From a virus (lineage: Duplodnaviria > Heunggongvirae > Uroviricota > Caudoviricetes): a stretch of 13,222 bases of DNA. Positions 2,042 through 9,854 of this stretch are shown one piece after another; position 1 is the stretch's first letter, and the number at the start of each line of letters is the position of its first letter. The stretch covers positions 1-13,222 of IMG/VR virus record IMGVR_UViG_2654588181_000002; one strand, 5' to 3'. The notes under the pieces were generated by a model, which saw only the letters and a list, made by a program, of their open reading frames with translations, had not been told where the DNA came from and made no database searches. A program made the position numbers and the translations under genes.

Positions 2042-2870
2042 GACGATGCCCTCCGCTGATATTCAGGAGACGGTGAATATGAAAATTAGCCTTATCCGCC
2101 AGACGAATACGTTCAGCTTGCAAGTTAAGAAGGGTTTCTACCAGAACCTGATGTGCCTGCGGATCCGAAAGAGTTACCTTGCGCAGAGCACGTAGTGCAG
2201 CTGTTACATAACTGAGTTTATGTAAGTCTTCATCATTCAGACGAGTGAGGGCTGGGACAGTAGCCATGATGGCAGCCTCCTTGATCGGTGAAATACTTCC
2301 ACCACCGGAAACGCCAATTTCGCTGGTGGTGAACTGAACGGGGTTGGCGTAACCGGTGATCAAGGAAACCGGCGCATCTTTCGATGCCCCCGCCCAGCCC
2401 ACCATAACTTTGATGTGAGCAAATGCGGACGATAAAAAAGACGCTGGCGCGTCATATATCGCCTTGATCAATTCCAGGACGCCAATCCCGGCACCCGCTT
2501 TATAAGGTGCCTGAACAGTGTAACGTCCCGGAATGGCAGAATCAATGTGCTGGTGGTCCTTCACACTCAACAAAATCACGCCTGAATTTCCACAAAGGGC
2601 TAAAGCACTCATGCGGGTAGTCTTTGCGAAGATAGATAACGCGCTGTGTTTCTGGCTCCCAACGAATAACATGAACATAAAGTCCTCTTCCGTCACGAAA
2701 CCAGCGGTTAAGTTCCTGCACAACTCGCCCCCCACAGTCAGGTAAAGTTCTCTGTGGTTACTTACAGCCAGGAGATTTGGTAATCTGCATTCATGCCGTA
2801 ACAACAGGTGTTCAGCGACGCTGACCACCAGCTGTTGCGACAAACGGTTATTTGCCGTTAAACTGTTCAT
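2034..2870 (-). CDS. hypothetical protein (278 aa) in the lambdoid replication-gene position; function unknown
   Basis: Long ORF with ATGA overlap to the upstream CII-like gene (2867-2870). No Walker A/P-loop, no N-terminal HTH and no other motif I can assign. Confidence 0.6.
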   Translation of the reverse strand: MNSLTANNRLSQQLVVSVAEHLLLRHECRLPNLLAVSNHRELYLTVGGELCRNLTAGFVTEEDFMFMLFVGSQKHSALSIFAKTTRMSALALCGNSGVILLSVKDHQHIDSAIPGRYTVQAPYKAGAGIGVLELIKAIYDAPASFLSSAFAHIKVMVGWAGASKDAPVSLITGYANPVQFTTSEIGVSGGGSISPIKEAAIMATVPALTRLNDEDLHKLSYVTAALRALRKVTLSDPQAHQVLVETLLNLQAERIRLADKANFHIHRLLNISGGHRHA

Positions 2871-3670: not shown

Positions 3671-3758
3671 AATATGTACCTCCGGTGTACATATTACATG
3701 ATTGAAATGAACCTTCAAGATACTTGTACCTTAACGGTACAAGAGTTTTAATTTCGTT
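3671..3758. promoter_or_regulatory. divergent immunity-switch control region: two inverted-repeat operators plus candidate pR (minus) and pRM (plus) promoters
   Basis: Operator 1 is AATATGTAC-N7-GTACATATT (3671-3695, perfect 9-bp arms). Operator 2 is CTTGTACC-TTAAC-GGTACAAG (3723-3743, perfect 8-bp arms). Candidate pR on minus strand: -35 TTGAAG (3719..3714), 17-bp spacer, -10 TAATAT (3696..3691), overlapping operator 1. Candidate pRM on plus strand: -35 TTGTAC (3724-3729), 17-bp spacer, -10 TTTAAT (3747-3752), ending about 7 nt before the repressor ATG. Confidence 0.6.
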
Positions 3759-4444: not shown

Positions 4445-4468
4445 GAACCTGCTTCGGCAGGTTTTTTT
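4445..4468 (+). terminator. intrinsic terminator downstream of the repressor gene
   Basis: ACCTGC-TTCG-GCAGGT hairpin (4447-4462, UUCG tetraloop) followed by a run of seven T (4462-4468), 12 nt after the repressor stop. Confidence 0.75.
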
Positions 4469-4472
4469 ATAC

Positions 4473-4505
4473 TTGACAATGTACCTTTGAGATACATAAT
4501 GTACC
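4473..4505 (+). promoter_or_regulatory. candidate early-left promoter (pL-like) with repressor half-sites
   Basis: -35 TTGACA (4473-4478), 16-bp spacer, -10 CATAAT (4495-4500). The ATGTACC motif occurs twice (4480-4486 and 4499-5505 region, second copy at 4499-4505), sharing the GTAC core of the operators at 3671-3743. Confidence 0.6.
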
Positions 4506-5294: not shown

Positions 5295-5343
5295 GTTGTT
5301 GGGGATAACCAGATTAACCGAATCCTTGTTGTTGGGGAATAAC
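5295..5343. repeat. two direct copies of GTTGTTGGGGA(A)TAAC, 33 bp apart, just upstream of the 4845-5279 gene
   Basis: 5295-5309 GTTGTTGGGGATAAC and 5328-5343 GTTGTTGGGGAATAAC. Position fits a regulator binding site or promoter element for the minus-strand gene. Confidence 0.4.
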
Positions 5344-5605
5344 TAGGTCCACCTCGCCTGATGTGGCTAAAAGCAGGCACATAACAGCTAAGTATTTTCA
5401 ACCAGAGAGAATCCTTAGCGTTGTGGTGAATGCGGCTCAGCGCACGCGGGTTAAGGTTGAGGCTGACAGTCGACCTTCTGTGGATACCCACCCGCCTGGT
5501 GTGCAACCTTCGCCAGGCACCGGGAGGCACCCGGCACCACAACTTTATGCTGTGTGTAGTCTTGGCGGTACCAGCTTGTACCCTTGCTTCCGGCTGGTAC
5601 CGTCC

Positions 5606-5704
5606 TTTTTACAAAACAGAGAAGAGCATCACCGGACGACGGGCTCATAACCCAATCCATCCGGGCGGCAGTCACCGCAGGTGTTCTTCTCTGTTTTGTG
5701 GAGA
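5606..5704. other. long imperfect palindrome / stem-loop within a GC-rich non-coding block
   Basis: Perfect 14-bp inverted repeat ACAAAACAGAGAAG (5611-5624) / CTTCTCTGTTTTGT (5686-5699), extendable with wobbles to about 20 bp, enclosing a ~49-nt GC-rich loop. No flanking U-run on either strand, so not a classical terminator. Confidence 0.4.
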
Positions 5705-5747
5705 AACTAACCGACCTTGCAGGGTCGATATGATGAGGAGCAGCAAA

Positions 5748-6110
5748 ATGGCTAGCGAACGCAGTACTGATGTGCAGGCATTTATCGGGGAGCTGGACGG
5801 CGGCGTATTTGAAACCAAAATCGGCGCAGTTCTCAGTGAAGTCGCTTCCGGTGTGATGAACACGAAAACCAAAGGTAAGGTCTCGCTCAACCTAGAAATC
5901 GAACCGTTTGATGAGAACCGAGTGAAAATCAAACACAAACTCTCATATGTTCGCCCGACTAACCGCGGGAAAATTTCCGAAGAAGACACCACCGAAACGC
6001 CGATGTATGTCAATCGCGGTGGTCGCCTGACTATTCTGCAGGAAGACCAGGGACAGTTGCTGACTCTTGCCGGTGAACCTGACGGAAAACTCCGCGCAGC
6101 AGGTCGTTAA
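5748..6110 (+). CDS. YfdP-like prophage protein (120 aa), function unknown
   Basis: Start at ATG 5748 (MASERSTDVQAFIGELDGG...) preceded by GAGGAG (5735-5740). The ORF-track extension back to 5430 translates to Arg/Cys/His-rich sequence typical of GC-rich non-coding DNA and is rejected. First gene of a block recalled as the CPS-53 yfdPQRST-like cluster. Confidence 0.65.
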   Translation: MASERSTDVQAFIGELDGGVFETKIGAVLSEVASGVMNTKTKGKVSLNLEIEPFDENRVKIKHKLSYVRPTNRGKISEEDTTETPMYVNRGGRLTILQEDQGQLLTLAGEPDGKLRAAGR

Positions 6111-6175
6111 TATCGTTTTTAATTAACTGATTATTTATCTCATCACTGAATATCTTTATATAGTGAGGACTTATT

Positions 6176-7000
6176 ATGTCTCAGAACTTAGACGCAACCG
6201 CAATTAATCAAATCCATGCCCTTATTTCTGCTCAGGGTGTTAATGAAATTATCAGTAAGATTGGTGCCGATGCTGTGGCATTGCCTGAGAATTTCCGCAT
6301 TCATGATCTGGAAAAATTTAATTTAAATCGCTTCCGTTTCCGTGGTGCGCTTTCCACTGCCAGCATCGATGATTTTACCCGTTATTCTAAAGATCTTGCA
6401 GATGAAGGCACCCGCTGCTTTATCGATGCTGATAATATGCGTGCCGTCAGTGTGCTTAACCTAGGTACTATTGATGAACCAGGTCACGCAGATAACACCG
6501 CCACACTCAAACTGAAAAAGACAGCACCGTTCTCTGCTCTGTTGTCTGTTAACGGCGAGCGTAACTCCCAGAAGTCACTAGCAGAATGGATTGAAGACTG
6601 GGCCGACTATCTTGTGGGCTTTGATGCTAATGGTGACGCTATTCAGGCAACAAAAGCGGCTGCGGCTGTCCGTAAAATCACGATTGAAGCAAACCAGACC
6701 GCTGATTTTGAAGATAATGACTTCAGCGGCAAACGCTCCCTGATGGAGTCTGTCGAAGCGAAGACCAAAGACATTATGCCAGTGGCATTTGAATTTAAAT
6801 GCGTTCCGTTTGAAGGTCTGAAAGAACGTCCGTTTAAATTACGCCTCAGTATTATCACTGGCGATCGTCCTGTACTGGTTCTGCGCATTATTCAGCTGGA
6901 GGCGGTGCAGGAAGAAATGGCTAACGAATTTCGTGATCTGCTTGTTGAGAAATTCAAGGACAGCAAAGTAGAAACCTTTATTGGTACTTTCACCGCCTGA
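6176..7000 (+). CDS. YfdQ-like prophage protein (DUF2303-type), 274 aa
   Basis: ATG 6176 with GAGGA (6165-6169) upstream. Product [30 protein letters not shown]... recalled as YfdQ-family. Confidence 0.75.
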
Positions 7001-7012
7001 TTTCATTACTGC

Positions 7013-7034
7013 AAATGCCCCTGCGGGGGCATTT
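7013..7034 (+). other. perfect 9-bp hairpin between the yfdQ-like and yfdR-like genes
   Basis: AAATGCCCC-TGCG-GGGGCATTT (stem 7013-7021 / 7026-7034). The only T residues are inside the stem, so it is a weak terminator at best; possibly an mRNA stability or processing element. Confidence 0.35.
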
Positions 7035-7127
7035 ATGGAAACGTAATTTACTCAATAATCGCCGGATGGTGAGGGATTCTTTTTACCAGAATTCAGCGCG
7101 GTGCAGCGCATATACGTGGAGAACAAA

Positions 7128-7664
7128 ATGTCATTTATTAAAACTTTTTCCGGGAAGCATTTTTATTATGACAGGATAAATAAAGACGACATCGATATTA
7201 ACGATATCGCGGTTTCCCTTTCAAATATCTGTCGCTTTGCCGGTCATCTTTCGCACTTCTACAGCGTCGCCCAACATGCGGTTCTTTGCAGCCAGCTGGT
7301 GCCGCAGGAATTTGCTTTTGAAGCGTTAATGCATGATGCAACAGAAGCGTATTGCCAGGACATTCCCGCACCACTGAAACGCCTTCTTCCTGACTATAAA
7401 CAAATGGAAGAAAAAATAGACGCCGTAATCCGTGAGAAATACGGGTTACCCCCAGTTATGAGTACGCCCGTGAAATATGCCGATCTCATCATGCTGGCAA
7501 CCGAACGCCGCGATCTCGGGCTTGATGATGGCTCTTTCTGGCCTGTACTGGAAGGTATCCCGGCAACAGAGATGTTCAACGTGATTCCACTGGCACCGGG
7601 CCATGCCTACGGGATGTTTATGGAACGCTTTAACGAGTTATCGGAGTTACGCAAATGCGCATGA
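7128..7664 (+). CDS. HD-domain phosphohydrolase (YfdR-like)
   Basis: 178 aa. H...HD metal-binding signature (...AGHLSHFYSVAQHAV... and ...ALMHDATEAY...). ATG 7128 preceded by GGAG (7117-7120); the ORF-track GTG at 7101 is rejected. Stop overlaps the next gene's start. Confidence 0.85.
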   Translation: MSFIKTFSGKHFYYDRINKDDIDINDIAVSLSNICRFAGHLSHFYSVAQHAVLCSQLVPQEFAFEALMHDATEAYCQDIPAPLKRLLPDYKQMEEKIDAVIREKYGLPPVMSTPVKYADLIMLATERRDLGLDDGSFWPVLEGIPATEMFNVIPLAPGHAYGMFMERFNELSELRKCA

Positions 7665-8017
7665 ATGTTTTCGAAATGGAAGGGTTTCTTCGTGGGAGAT
7701 GTGTACCGCGAGATCTGAAAGTAAATGAAACAGATGCTGAATACCTGGTGCGTAAATTCGATGCGCTTGAAGCTAAATGTGCAGCACAGGAAAACAAAGT
7801 AATACCAGTGTCAACTGAACTGCCACCAGCAAATGAAAGTGTTTTGTTATTCGATGCTAACGGAGAAGGCTGGCTAATTGGCTGGCGTTCTCTCTGGTAC
7901 ACCTGGGGACAAAAAGAAACCGGAGAATGGCAGTGGACATTTCAGGTCGGGGACCTTGAAAACGTCAATATCACTCACTGGGCAGTAATGCCAAAAGCAC
8001 CGGAGGCTGGAGCATAA
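7655..8017 (+). CDS. DUF551-like phage protein (YfdS-like)
   Basis: 120 aa, Trp-rich C-terminal half (...GWLIGWRSLWYTWGQKETGEWQW...) typical of DUF551. Start overlaps the previous stop (7655-7664); the stop overlaps the next start (8017). Confidence 0.7.
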   Translation: MRMNVFEMEGFLRGRCVPRDLKVNETDAEYLVRKFDALEAKCAAQENKVIPVSTELPPANESVLLFDANGEGWLIGWRSLWYTWGQKETGEWQWTFQVGDLENVNITHWAVMPKAPEAGA

Positions 8018-8322: not shown

Positions 8323-8672
8323 TGGAGCCATACAGCCTCACACTCGATGAGGCCTGTCATTTTCTCAAGATATCCAGACCGACTGCCATTAACTGGATAC
8401 GCACAGGGCGTCTTCAGGCAACACGCAAAGATCCCACTAAGAATAAATCTCCTTACCTCACAACACGACAAGCCTGCATTGCGGCTCTTCAGTCTCCGCT
8501 GCATACTGTCCAGGTGAGCGCGGGTGATGGCATAACAGAGGAAAGAAAATGTCACTCTTCCGCAGAGGTGAAATATGGTACGCCAGTTTCACATTGCCGA
8601 ACGGTAAAAGATTTAAACAGTCTCTTGGAACAAAGGACAAAAGGCAGGCGACAGAACTCCATGACAAGCTAA
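8322..8672 (+). CDS. AlpA/Xis-type excisionase / DNA-binding regulator
   Basis: N-terminus [38 protein letters not shown]... is the AlpA-family HTH. ATG 8322 with GAGG (8311-8314) upstream. The ORF runs 116 codons and its last 124 nt overlap the integrase start in another frame, so the true C-terminus is uncertain. Confidence 0.7.
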
Positions 8673-9712
8673 AGGCTGAAGCATGGCGGGTCAGCAAACT
8701 TGGTGAAATACCTGATATAACGTTCGAGGAAGCGTGTGTCAGGTGGCTTGAAGAGAAAGCACATAAAAAATCACTGGACGATGACAAAAGCCGGATCGGA
8801 TTCTGGCTTCAACATTTCGCAGGAATGCAACTAAGAGACATTACTGAATCAAAAATTTATTCAGCAATGCAGAAAATGACGAACCGGCGTCATGAGGAAA
8901 ACTGGAAACTCAGGGCAGAAGCATGCAGAAAAAAAGGGAAACCTGTTCCAGAATACACGCCAAAACCAGCGTCCGTTGCAACGAAGGCTACGCATCTTTC
9001 ATTTATAAAGGCCCTACTAAGAGCCGCAGAGCGTGAATGGAAAATGCTGGATAAGGCACCAATTATTAAAGTGCCTCAACCAAAGAATAAACGGATCCGC
9101 TGGCTGGAGCCCCATGAAGCACAAAGGCTGATTGATGAATGTCCGGAGCCATTAAAGTCTGTTGTTGAATTTGCACTGGCAACAGGCTTAAGACGCTCGA
9201 ACATCATCAACCTTGAATGGCAACAAATAGATATGCAGCGCCGGGTGGCATGGATAAACCCGGAAGAGAGTAAATCAAACCGCGCAATTGGCGTTGCGCT
9301 GAATGATACTGCATGTCGCGTATTGAAAAAACAAATCGGGAATCATCACCGTTGGGTATTTGTGTACAAGGAAAGCTGTACCAAACCAGACGGAACGAAA
9401 GCGCCAACAGTAAGGAAGATGCGGTATGACGCAAACACAGCCTGGAAAGCGGCGCTGAGACGGGCTGGTATTGATGATTTCAGATTTCACGACTTGAGAC
9501 ACACCTGGGCAAGTTGGCTGGTTCAAGCCGGAGTCCCGTTGTCAGTGTTACAGGAAATGGGAGGCTGGGAGTCTATCGAAATGGTTCGTCGATATGCTCA
9601 CCTTGCACCTAATCACCTTACCGAACACGCACGGCAAATAGACTCGATCCTGAACCCATCGGTCCCAAATTTGTCCCAGTCAAAAAATAAGGAAGGTACT
9701 AATGATGTGTAA
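8549..9712 (+). CDS. tyrosine recombinase, phage integrase (e14 IntE-like)
   Basis: 387 aa. N-terminus [34 protein letters not shown] and C-terminal catalytic region ...[42 protein letters not shown] (R..H..R..Y). Stops 14 nt before the 3' end of the tRNA. Confidence 0.95.
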
Positions 9713-9725
9713 CTTATTGATTTTA

Positions 9726-9801
9726 ATGGTGCCGATAATAGGAGTCGAACCTACGACCTTCGCATTACGAATGCGCTGCTCTACCAACTGAGCTATATCG
9801 G
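9726..9801 (-). tRNA. thrW: tRNA-Thr (anticodon CGU)
   Basis: Minus strand reads GCCGATATAGCTCAGTTGGTAGAGCAGCGCATTCGTAATGCGAAGGTCGTAGGTTCGACTCCTATTATCGGCACCA: 7-bp acceptor stem, anticodon loop UUCGUAA, T-loop GGTTCGA, encoded CCA. Sits between proA and the integrase, as expected for a thrW-integrated island. Confidence 0.97.
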
Positions 9802-9854
9802 CCCTGAAAGGACATGTTCACGAACGTGAATCACGGTGGACAAGGTTAAAACTA

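What the first reader, a model, noticed from the sequence alone, without database searches (positions are those of the whole stretch)
7013..7034. Perfect hairpin inside the yfdQ-yfdR intergenic region
A 9-bp perfect stem with a 4-nt loop sits 13 nt after the yfdQ-like stop, in the only sizeable intergenic gap of an otherwise tightly coupled operon, and lacks a trailing U-run. It could be a partial attenuator, an mRNA 3'-end stabiliser that sets the ratio of the first gene to the downstream genes, or a processing site.
Basis: seen in the sequence. Interest (0 to 1): 0.2.

Follow-up and report, generated by a model that had tools for sequence, protein, structure and literature searches.

The report
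Conserved RNA hairpin after yfdQ
The hairpin just after the prophage gene yfdQ is real and is kept by compensating mutations in related prophages across the enterobacteria; it most likely marks and protects the end of the upstream message, an ordinary kind of element that nobody has annotated.

Summary
A perfect 9-bp stem with a 4-nt loop lies at 7013-7034, 12 nt after the yfdQ stop codon, with no U-run after it.

Chance could give one such hairpin in a window of this size. Comparison with relatives shows it is selected:
- 62 of 64 distinct yfdQ (DUF2303) loci from Enterobacterales have a strong hairpin at the same place. Only 0.65% of control windows do.
- The nine core pairs form in 333 of 333 cells of a 37-sequence alignment, and five pairs show changes on both sides.
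- There are 18 G·U pairs and no A·C pairs, so it is an RNA structure on the + strand, not a DNA palindrome.
- Loops vary freely. It occurs once per locus and matches no Rfam family.
- It travels with yfdQ whatever gene follows.

Only a short U-stretch (UUU, then A, then U) follows the G+C-rich upper stem, and more distant relatives have none. The best reading is a hairpin that defines and protects the 3' end of the yfdP-yfdQ message: a leaky terminator, a block to exonucleases, or both. This is untested.

It is the first of three conserved stem-loops in the gap. The third belongs to a recurring hairpin motif with a (G/U)UGCAG loop that sits just before ribosome-binding sites. That motif is the more unusual lead.

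The parts
6176..7000 (+). yfdQ-family gene (DUF2303), stop codon TGA at 6998-7000. The hairpin travels with its 3' end.
   Evidence: ORF list; Pfam DUF2303 at E=2e-92; RefSeq annotation of a 100%-identical E. coli record.
7013..7034 (+). SL1, the hairpin of the finding. 5' arm 7013-7021, loop UGCG 7022-7025, 3' arm 7026-7034. The G+C-rich core GCCCC-UGCG-GGGGC is at 7017-7030.
   Evidence: Covariation in 37 distinct relatives: 333 of 333 cells paired, 5 of 9 pairs with changes on both sides. 18 G·U and 0 A·C pairs. The covariance model hits 6998-7056 at 65.3 bits, the only + strand hit in the window.
7001..7012 (+). 5' strand of a possible weak lower extension of SL1, pairing with 7035-7046. 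A ribosome stopping at the yfdQ stop codon would cover it (inference).
   Evidence: The lower helix is 80% paired in relatives against 72% in shuffles and 29-49% in slid controls, with modest covariation. In the window itself RNAfold prefers another register and the centroid keeps only the 9-bp core.
7035..7058 (+). A+U-rich linker after SL1. It holds the family-conserved motif RUGRAAGCGUAAUU and is a candidate single-stranded site for an endonuclease (inference).
   Evidence: Alignments A2 and A3.
7059..7079 (+). SL2 (UCGCC-GGAU-GGUGA, 7059-7072) followed by the conserved GGGAUUC (7073-7079).
   Evidence: 92.5% paired in 32 sequences; UCGCC/GGCGA changes to UUGCC/GGCAA in some relatives.
7096..7109 (+). 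SL3 (GCGC-GGUGCA-GCGC). The stem varies and the loop (G/U)UGCAG is conserved. It lies 8 nt before the yfdR ribosome-binding site GGAG (7118-7121) and 18 nt before the ATG at 7128.
7128..7664 (+). yfdR (HD-domain 5'-deoxynucleotidase), the first gene after the gap.
5712..5727 (+). A second hairpin with a UGCAG loop (CGACC-UUGCAG-GGUCG), just before the yfdP ribosome-binding site (5736-5741) and ATG (5748). It is the left end of the yfdP-yfdQ deletion in phage SKA5 and strain TC_EC10; the right end is inside the 5' arm of SL1 (7017).

Best explanation
SL1 is a conserved stem-loop in the + strand early-left transcript of an SfIV / CPS-53 / ST64B-type prophage. It closes the yfdP-yfdQ message.

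Proposed mechanism (inferred, not shown):
1. Some RNA polymerases terminate at the G+C-rich upper stem followed by AUUUAU, so it acts as a weak, leaky intrinsic terminator.
2. Transcripts that read through are cut in the A+U-rich linker downstream.
3. In both cases the stable hairpin then blocks 3'-to-5' exonucleases.

The result would be that the yfdP-yfdQ segment outlasts and out-expresses yfdR and the genes after it. The hairpin starts 10-12 nt past the stop codon, so a terminating ribosome would leave it folded.

Shown here: the hairpin exists, it is selected as an RNA structure on the + strand, it is fixed at the yfdQ 3' end, and its U-tract is poor.

Inferred: termination, protection from exonucleases, and the effect on expression ratios.
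For: Presence in relatives:
- A hairpin of -12 kcal/mol or better lies within 65 nt after the stop codon in 62 of 64 distinct Enterobacterales sequences. Only 0.65% of 768 control windows from the same loci have one.
- The stem starts 5-12 nt after the stop codon in 59 of 64 sequences.

Selection on structure:
- Core pairs form in 100% of cells, against 38-60% in slid controls.
- 30 cells have changes on both sides, against 5.2 in shuffles (0 of 500 shuffles reach this).
- 18 G·U and 0 A·C pairs in the core; 64 against 12 in the lower helix.
- Loop length (3-8 nt) and loop sequence are unconstrained. The helix is what is kept, as expected for a terminator or a protective hairpin.

Terminator-like features:
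- The two base pairs at the foot of the stem are always A on the 5' side and U on the 3' side (37 of 37). At least UU follows the G+C core in every Enterobacterales sequence read.
- The window's tail score is 2.92. The terminator of the neighbouring STnc100-like RNA scores 3.24 and the cI terminator 4.98.
- The d'Aubenton-Carafa-type discriminant is +8.5 for the window.

Linkage to yfdQ:
- The hairpin stays with yfdQ when the next gene is not yfdR. That gene can be a pentapeptide-repeat protein, an exonuclease, SSB, or xis-int.
- In Proteus and Providencia only SL1 remains, before the next ribosome-binding site.

Possible need for unequal expression:
- A solved structure of a YfdQ protein (PDB 9o7m) holds 36 copies of the chain. 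This fits an oligomeric protein needed in larger amounts than the enzymes downstream, but it is weak, indirect evidence.
Against: - The U-tract is poor: 4 U in 8 nt after the G+C core and 1 in 8 after the full stem. The consensus terminator scan did not call the site.
- The discriminant is positive in only 15 of 64 relatives.
- Marinobacter and Pseudomonas relatives have a hairpin after the stop codon but no U-tract. Termination therefore cannot be the universally conserved activity.
- The Stx-phage relative TL-2011c has only a weak 6-bp hairpin.
- K-12 Term-seq tables list no 3' end near the yfdQ stop codon. The locus is poorly transcribed there, with a Rho-dependent termination region inside yfdP.
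- The conserved sequence after the stem (GUGAAGCGUAAUU), SL2 and SL3 are not explained by a simple 3'-end element.
Confidence: 0.5

Rival explanations
1. SL1 is not a separate 3'-end element. It is the first domain of one composite regulatory RNA of about 125 nt (SL1, linker, SL2 with GGGAUUC, SL3 with the UGCAG loop, ribosome-binding site). This RNA would control translation or stability of whatever gene follows, for instance by binding a phage or host factor. Alternatively it could be released as a processed small RNA, as DicF is from the dicB operon of the Qin prophage.
For: - All three stem-loops and several single-stranded stretches are conserved from E. coli to Kosakonia, Erwinia and Mangrovibacter.
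- SL2 and SL3 are 92% paired, with changes on both sides in 6 of 10 pairs.
- The same three-part gap precedes genes other than yfdR.
- The SL3-type hairpin recurs before other ribosome-binding sites: 59 hits on the + strand against 0 on the - strand, and 0-1 for ten control pentamers.
Against: - Proteus, Providencia, Xenorhabdus and Morganella keep SL1 but lack SL2 and SL3, so SL1 can stand alone.
- SKA5 keeps SL2, SL3 and yfdR with only half of SL1.
- No pairing between the domains was found. RNAalifold on the MAFFT alignment gave no joint structure.
- No Rfam family matches.
Confidence: 0.2
2. SL1 with its lower extension is a double-stranded site for RNase III, like the intercistronic sites of phage T7 or the sib/tI retroregulator of phage lambda. 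Read-through transcripts would form the longer helix, be cut, and lose or gain stability.
For: - The 3' strand of the lower helix lies beyond the terminator-like core, the same layout as lambda sib/tI (own knowledge).
- The minimum-energy extended hairpin has at least 16 pairs in 43 of 64 relatives.
- The lower helix shows some covariation, including U·G changing to G·U at one pair (23 against 9 sequences).
Against: - No sequence reaches 20 pairs. The window has 15, reached through a different register, and its centroid keeps only the 9-bp core.
- The lower helix is only 80% paired against 72% in shuffles, and the counts of covarying pairs are not significant (113 of 500 shuffles reach them).
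- A ribosome stopping at the stop codon would cover the 5' strand (inference).
Confidence: 0.08
3. The feature works at the DNA level. It would be a palindromic protein-binding site, or a cruciform or hotspot that serves as a recombination joint between phage gene modules.
For: - It is a perfect 22-bp palindrome.
- It sits where the downstream genes differ between phages.
- One end of the yfdP-yfdQ deletion in SKA5 and TC_EC10 lies inside its 5' arm, at 7017.
Against: - 18 G·U pairs and no A·C pairs in the core means the pairing holds on one strand only.
- The stem sequence changes between phages while the pairing is kept, and the loops vary. There is therefore no conserved recognition sequence and too little identity for homologous exchange.
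- The operator palindromes of this phage are a different sequence (TGTAC-N7-GTACA) and occur only between cro and cI.
Confidence: 0.04
4. It is a nut-like site (boxA plus a boxB hairpin) that loads an antitermination factor onto RNA polymerase.
For: - The stem GCCCC/GGGGC resembles the stem of lambda boxB (own knowledge).
- Some relatives have UGCUCU, which resembles boxA, just upstream.
- The site lies in the early-left operon.
Against: - The loop is not conserved in length or sequence.
- The boxA-like stretch is simply the variable 5' strand of the lower helix.
- The covariance model of SL1 found no match elsewhere in the window, including the rightward (- strand) operon.
- The site lies after two genes rather than near a promoter.
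Confidence: 0.02
5. It is a chance palindrome with no function.
For: Shuffles of the window give at least one perfect hairpin of 9 bp or more 25% of the time.
Against: The hairpin is conserved with compensatory changes in 37 distinct sequences. It is present in 97% of relatives against 0.65% of control windows.
Confidence: 0.02

Closest known systems
Weak or leaky intrinsic (Rho-independent) terminators inside phage early operons, such as the internal terminators of the lambda PL operon
   Same: G+C-rich stem with a short loop. An A-tract upstream pairs with U residues downstream. It lies right after a gene in the early-left operon, and genes on the same strand follow it.
   Different: Only UUU, then A, then U follows the core, and the tail score is 2.9 against about 5 for a canonical terminator in the same window. 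Many relatives score lower and more distant ones have no U-tract. No 3' end has been mapped, and no early antitermination system is known for this phage group.
Intercistronic hairpins that stabilise mRNA (Rhodobacter puf operon; REP elements between E. coli malE and malF; papB-papA)
   Same: A stable hairpin immediately 3' of an upstream gene inside a multi-gene transcript. The structure is conserved rather than the sequence. The expected effect is unequal expression of upstream and downstream genes.
   Different: It is a single-copy element tied to one gene family, not a dispersed repeat like REP. Differential stability has not been measured.
Lambda sib/tI retroregulator and the phage T7 RNase III processing sites
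   Same: A terminator-like upper stem plus a lower extension whose 3' strand is made only on read-through. It sits between genes in a phage early transcript.
   Different: The helix is too short and too interrupted: at most 19 pairs in relatives, and 9 contiguous pairs in the window.
Lambda boxB (nut site)
   Same: A small G+C-rich hairpin in the early-left operon with a similar stem sequence.
   Different: The loop is not conserved, there is no boxA, the site is not close to a promoter, and the rightward operon has no second copy.
Rfam STnc100 / PasD-type prophage small RNA
   Same: A copy lies in the same operon at 5390-5613. cmscan gives a weak match across the gap (19.8 bits, E about 0.02).
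   Different: The match is far below the gathering score of 47 and is not reproduced in a relative with the consensus form of the gap (11.1 bits, E=2.9).

Membership tests
Intrinsic (Rho-independent) terminator | G+C-rich stem-loop with a 3-8 nt loop | tested here: met
   9-bp stem with 5 G-C pairs and a 4-nt loop, -15 kcal/mol.
Intrinsic (Rho-independent) terminator | U-rich tract (about 5 or more U in 8 nt) directly after the stem | tested here: not met
   4 of 8 after the G+C core and 1 of 8 after the full stem. Not called by the scan. Tail score 2.92 against 4.98 for the cI terminator. The discriminant is above 0 in only 15 of 64 relatives.
Intrinsic (Rho-independent) terminator | RNA 3' ends at the site | tested here: inconclusive
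   K-12 Term-seq tables (PMC7815308) list no 3' end in the region searched around the estimated position of the yfdQ stop codon. The locus is poorly expressed there, with a Rho-dependent region inside yfdP.
Intercistronic mRNA-stabilising hairpin | Stable hairpin directly 3' of an upstream gene within a multi-gene unit, conserved as a structure | tested here: met
Intercistronic mRNA-stabilising hairpin | The upstream RNA segment is more stable or more abundant than the downstream one, and this depends on the hairpin | not testable with these tools
   Needs RNA half-life measurements and stem mutants.
RNase III processing site (T7 R1.1 or lambda sib type) | About two helical turns (20 bp or more) of mostly continuous duplex | tested here: not met
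   The window has 9 contiguous pairs and 15 in the minimum-energy fold. Relatives reach at most 19.
Lambdoid nut site | boxB loop of conserved sequence, plus boxA upstream | tested here: not met
   Loops are 3-8 nt of unrelated sequence. The upstream flank varies as the 5' strand of a helix.
Dispersed palindromic repeats (REP/BIME type) | Many copies per genome or element | tested here: not met
   The covariance model finds one + strand hit per locus, always at the yfdQ stop codon.
Rfam families (STnc100 and all others) | Match at or above the family's gathering score | tested here: not met
   No hit at gathering level. The best is STnc100 at 19.8 of 47 bits, not reproduced in L128.
UNCG tetraloop hairpin | C(UNCG)G loop, conserved | tested here: inconclusive
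   The window has C(UGCG)G and SKA5 has C(UACG)G. Most relatives have other loops, so it is a trait of one lineage and not a defining feature.

The most novel reading that the evidence does not exclude
The yfdQ-yfdR gap is an undescribed cis-regulatory RNA of the early-left operon, with SL1 as its first domain. Its key part is a short hairpin with a variable stem and a conserved (G/U)UGCAG hexaloop. This hairpin is repeated 5-20 nt before the ribosome-binding sites of several early genes (yfdP, yfdR, xis-like genes and others). A loop-specific phage or host factor would read it to coordinate translation or stability of those genes. One of them, YfdR, binds DnaA and belongs to a gene cluster whose overexpression inhibits chromosome replication.
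Probability: 0.2. Interest if true: 0.6.

Novelty: new member of a known kind. Interest (0 to 1): 0.3.

Why it matters
The element sits in a prophage block that matched in 3013 of 5426 complete E. coli genomes, and related blocks occur across the Enterobacterales. The block includes the yfdQRST cluster; overexpressing that cluster inhibits chromosome replication, and YfdR binds DnaA (PMC4776307).

If the hairpin sets how much of the operon beyond yfdQ is expressed, it is a simple and mutable handle on that cluster. It is also a clean, covariation-supported example of a hairpin that sets the expression ratio between genes in a temperate-phage early operon. As a kind of element it is ordinary.

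Three by-products may matter more:
- a three-stem-loop intergenic RNA that is not in Rfam;
- a recurring hairpin with a UGCAG loop in front of ribosome-binding sites;
- evidence that yfdP-yfdQ behaves as a cassette bounded by hairpins.

Tried and rejected
- **Rfam.** The gathering-level scan of the window found nothing at the site. E-value scans of the gap gave only a weak STnc100 match (19.8 bits), not reproduced in relative L128. Rejected.
- **Close-relative search.** A viral-contig scan with YfdQ returned only 100%-identical loci and was of no use for covariation. It was replaced by a one-genome-per-species scan.
- **RNAalifold on the MAFFT alignment of the whole gap.** It failed, giving 5 trivial pairs, because gaps were misplaced in the stems. 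Hand-specified structures were used instead.
- **nut site (boxA/boxB).** Rejected: the loops and the upstream flank are not conserved.
- **DNA operator.** Rejected on the G·U against A·C asymmetry. The phage's own operator palindromes differ and lie only between cro and cI.
- **Internal sigma-70 promoter in the gap.** None was found by the scan, and hand inspection found only poor hexamers.
- **Small ORF 7015-7179.** Its ATG lies inside the stem, and relatives with other stems lack that ATG. Rejected.
- **Stop-codon read-through or frameshift stimulator.** The stop codon is mostly UAA followed by U, and no extended frame is conserved. Rejected.
- **Masking of the ribosome-binding site by the linker.** The candidate UUCCAU is not conserved. 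Rejected.
- **Target of the C4-like antisense RNA.** That RNA has no stretch complementary to the UGCAG loops. Rejected.
- **Literature.** Searches for yfdQ/yfdR, DUF2303, STnc100, put RNA, SfIV terminators, GUGCAG and ST64B small RNAs found no description of the hairpin.
- **K-12 Term-seq supplements.** No 3' end at the site, but this is uninformative because the locus is poorly expressed.

Full report
**The observation.** Positions 7013-7034 read AAATGCCCC-TGCG-GGGGCATTT, a perfect 9-bp stem with a 4-nt loop. As RNA it folds at -15.0 kcal/mol, and 0 of 200 shuffles fold as well. The reverse strand folds at -13.2. The yfdQ stop codon is at 6998-7000 and the yfdR ATG is at 7128. Twelve bases therefore separate the stop codon from the stem, inside a 127-nt gap. 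No U-run follows the full stem, and the consensus terminator scan does not call the site. A perfect hairpin of this size is not rare by chance: 0.35 are expected per window, and 25% of shuffles have at least one. The sequence alone does not show that it is functional.

**Context.** The 6100-7700 stretch of the window is 100% identical to E. coli 2013C-4991 and 99.8% identical to Shigella phage SfIV. It comes from a prophage integrated next to tRNA-Thr and proA. On the + strand the order is:
- cI;
- an RNA resembling the small RNA STnc100 (5390-5613);
- yfdP (5748-6110);
- yfdQ, a DUF2303 protein (6176-7000);
- the gap;
- yfdR, an HD-domain 5'-deoxynucleotidase;
- a DUF551 gene, yfdT, xis and int.

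This is the early-left operon. The same block matched in 3013 of 5426 complete E. coli genomes.

**Relatives.** Phages about 66% identical in DNA (ST64B, phiNP, Kp4866-6, Hafnia yong2) have a hairpin at the same place with a different stem sequence. A scan of one genome per species with a YfdQ alignment gave 80 loci. Among 64 distinct Enterobacterales-type sequences:
- 62 have an uninterrupted hairpin of -12 kcal/mol or better within 65 nt after the stop codon (mean -14.9);
- only 0.65% of 768 control windows from the same loci do;
- the stem starts 5-12 nt after the stop codon in 59 of 64;
- stems are mostly 8-15 bp and loops are 3-8 nt of unrelated sequence.

**Covariation and strand.** In a 37-sequence alignment the nine core pairs form in 333 of 333 cells. 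Five of the nine pairs show changes on both sides. Thirty cells carry such changes, against 5.2 in shuffles (0 of 500 shuffles reach this). Sliding the 3' partner, a control that keeps the relatedness of the sequences, gives 38-60% pairing. The core holds 18 G·U pairs and no A·C pairs; the lower helix holds 64 against 12. The pairing therefore holds on the + strand only. It is an RNA structure of the operon transcript, not a duplex-DNA palindrome or a - strand RNA.

A weaker lower extension (7001-7012 with 7035-7046) is 80% paired against 72% in shuffles, with modest covariation. In the window itself this extension is doubtful.

**Copy number and known families.** A covariance model of the element finds exactly one + strand hit per locus, always at the yfdQ stop codon, and no other copy in the window. 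No Rfam family matches. A 19.8-bit STnc100 alignment is not reproduced in a relative.

**The rest of the gap.** The gap holds two more conserved stem-loops:
- SL2 (7059-7072), followed by the invariant-like GGGAUUC;
- SL3 (7096-7109), whose stem covaries while its loop (G/U)UGCAG is conserved.

Together they are 92% paired, against 29-67% in slid controls, and six of ten pairs show changes on both sides.

SL3 belongs to a recurring motif: a G+C-rich stem of 4-7 bp with a UGCAG loop, placed 5-20 nt before a ribosome-binding site and start codon. It occurs before yfdP (5712-5727), before the gene after the gap, and before xis-like and other genes in relatives. There are 78 hits on the + strand against 4 on the - strand. 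Fifty-nine + strand hits have a ribosome-binding site and start codon, against none on the - strand. Ten control pentamers give 0-1 such hits.

**What SL1 belongs to.** SL1 stays with yfdQ whatever follows it: yfdR, a pentapeptide-repeat protein, an exonuclease, SSB, or xis-int. Proteus, Providencia and related genera keep SL1 alone, directly before the next ribosome-binding site.

In phage SKA5 and strain TC_EC10, yfdP and yfdQ are missing. The deletion runs from the UGCAG hairpin at 5713-5724 to position 7017 inside the 5' arm of SL1, and leaves a hybrid hairpin GCCCC-UACG-GGGGC. SL1 therefore marks the 3' boundary of a yfdP-yfdQ cassette.

**Is it a terminator?** If only the G+C core (7017-7030, -10.5 kcal/mol) is taken as the hairpin, the tail is AUUUAUGG. 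Its tail score is 2.92. The STnc100-like terminator scores 3.24 and the cI terminator 4.98. A d'Aubenton-Carafa-type discriminant gives +8.5 for the window, but it is positive in only 15 of 64 relatives. These values were computed with current energy parameters, so they are approximate.

Two features fit selection for a short U-tract. The two lowest stem pairs are A on the 5' side and U on the 3' side in 37 of 37 sequences. At least UU follows the core in every Enterobacterales sequence read. Against this, Marinobacter and Pseudomonas relatives have a hairpin after the stop codon with no U-tract, and TL-2011c has only a weak 6-bp hairpin.

**Experimental data.** The K-12 Term-seq tables of Adams et al. 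(PMC7815308) list no 3' end near the yfdQ stop codon. They do list a Rho-dependent termination region inside yfdP, so the locus is hardly transcribed under those conditions and the absence says little. The paper on yfdQRST does not discuss transcripts. The SfIV genome paper shows its predicted terminators only in a figure.

**Mechanism.** The best-supported reading (confidence about 0.5) is that SL1 defines and protects the 3' end of the yfdP-yfdQ message. Termination at the G+C core plus short U-stretch would be weak. Read-through RNA would be cut in the A+U-rich linker (7035-7058). In both cases the hairpin would stop 3'-to-5' exonucleases, so the upstream segment outlasts the downstream genes.

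The hairpin begins just beyond the stretch that a terminating ribosome covers (own knowledge of ribosome footprints), so translation of yfdQ would not melt it. A solved YfdQ structure with 36 copies of the chain (9o7m) fits a protein needed in larger amounts, but only indirectly. All steps after 'a conserved + strand RNA hairpin at the yfdQ 3' end' are inference.

The rivals are:
- part of a composite regulatory or processed RNA together with SL2 and SL3 (0.2);
- an RNase III site of the sib or T7 type (0.08; the helix is too short);
- a DNA-level palindrome or recombination joint (0.04; contradicted by the G·U asymmetry);
- a nut site (0.02);
- chance (0.02).

**Comparison with known elements and verdict.** In kind, SL1 is an intercistronic hairpin: a leaky terminator or an mRNA stabiliser. 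These are known from the lambda early operons, the puf operon and malE-malF.
- It fails the U-tract criterion of a canonical intrinsic terminator.
- It fails the helix-length criterion of an RNase III site.
- It lacks the conserved loop and boxA of a nut site.
- It meets the structural criteria of a stabilising hairpin, whose functional criterion cannot be tested here.

It is unannotated, so it counts as a new member of a known kind, of modest interest (0.3). The more unusual lead lies beside it: the three-stem-loop gap and the repeated hairpin with a UGCAG loop before ribosome-binding sites.

Noticed in passing
window 5712-5727 and 7096-7109 (+); relatives L004-L152 at about -1290 to -1267, +47 to +101 and +244 to +1299 relative to the yfdQ stop codon: A recurring hairpin with a variable G+C-rich stem (4-7 bp) and a conserved hexaloop (G/U)UGCAG, 5-20 nt before a ribosome-binding site and start codon. 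It is found only on the early-left (+) strand: 78 hits against 4, and 59 against 0 with a ribosome-binding site and start codon. Ten control pentamers give 0-1. It looks like a loop-specific operator or leader element. No literature was found.
   Followed up: partly
window 7059-7079 (+): SL2 (UCGCC-N4-GGYGA) followed by GGGAUUC, strongly conserved in sequence and structure across genera, with UUGCC/GGCAA covariants. Function unknown. It also precedes genes other than yfdR.
   Followed up: partly
window 5390-5613 (+): An RNA resembling the small RNAs STnc100 and PasD, with its own terminator. It scores 43.4 bits, just under the gathering score of 47 (E=1.3e-7). It overlaps the 5' part of the 226-aa ORF 5430-6110, so the true yfdP start is probably the ATG at 5748. 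The same element occurs in SKA5 (45.2 bits) and ST64B (35.1 bits).
   Followed up: partly
window 5713-7017; L002 (phage SKA5) and L003 (E. coli TC_EC10) about 2500: yfdP-yfdQ is absent from some phages. The deletion ends lie in two hairpins that share about 12 nt of similarity, so the pair behaves as a cassette bounded by hairpins.
   Followed up: yes
window 2322-2409 (-) and 2434-2510 (-): Rfam hits above the gathering score to the C4 antisense RNA (82.3 bits) and the Hfq-binding RNA isrK (64.2 bits), side by side in the rightward operon.
   Followed up: no
window 9730-9802 (-): tRNA-Thr gene next to int (8549-9712), followed by proA and proB. This is the prophage attachment site and the end of the prophage.
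   Followed up: no
window 3671-3695 and 3723-3743: Two palindromes with the half-sites TGTAC-N7-GTACA in the cro-cI intergenic region, likely operators. No further copy occurs in the window, including near the early-left operon.
   Followed up: partly
window 4445-4500 (+): A canonical terminator right after cI (GAACCTGC-TTCG-GCAGGTT followed by a T-run), then a near-consensus promoter-like site (TTGACA, 16 nt, CATAAT; 11 of 12 matches).
   Followed up: no
window 5295-5309 and 5328-5343 (+): A direct repeat, GTTGTTGGGGATAAC and GTTGTTGGGGAATAAC, just upstream of the STnc100-like RNA. It may be a regulator-binding site at the start of the early-left unit (seen).
   Followed up: no
yfdQ protein, window 6176-6997: A solved structure named 'YfdQ Protein' exists (PDB 9o7m, E=1.2e-44) with 36 copies of the chain in one entry. 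This suggests a large homo-oligomer. No paper was found.
   Followed up: partly
E. coli K-12 CPS-53 (MG1655 coordinate 2473888, + strand): Adams et al. 2021 list a Rho-dependent termination region inside the annotated yfdP. It may lie near the K-12 counterpart of the STnc100-like RNA, but coordinates were not mapped to the window.
   Followed up: no
L007 1693-1765 (+), Hafnia phage yong2: A tRNA gene lies between cI and the yfdP-like gene of this relative.
   Followed up: no
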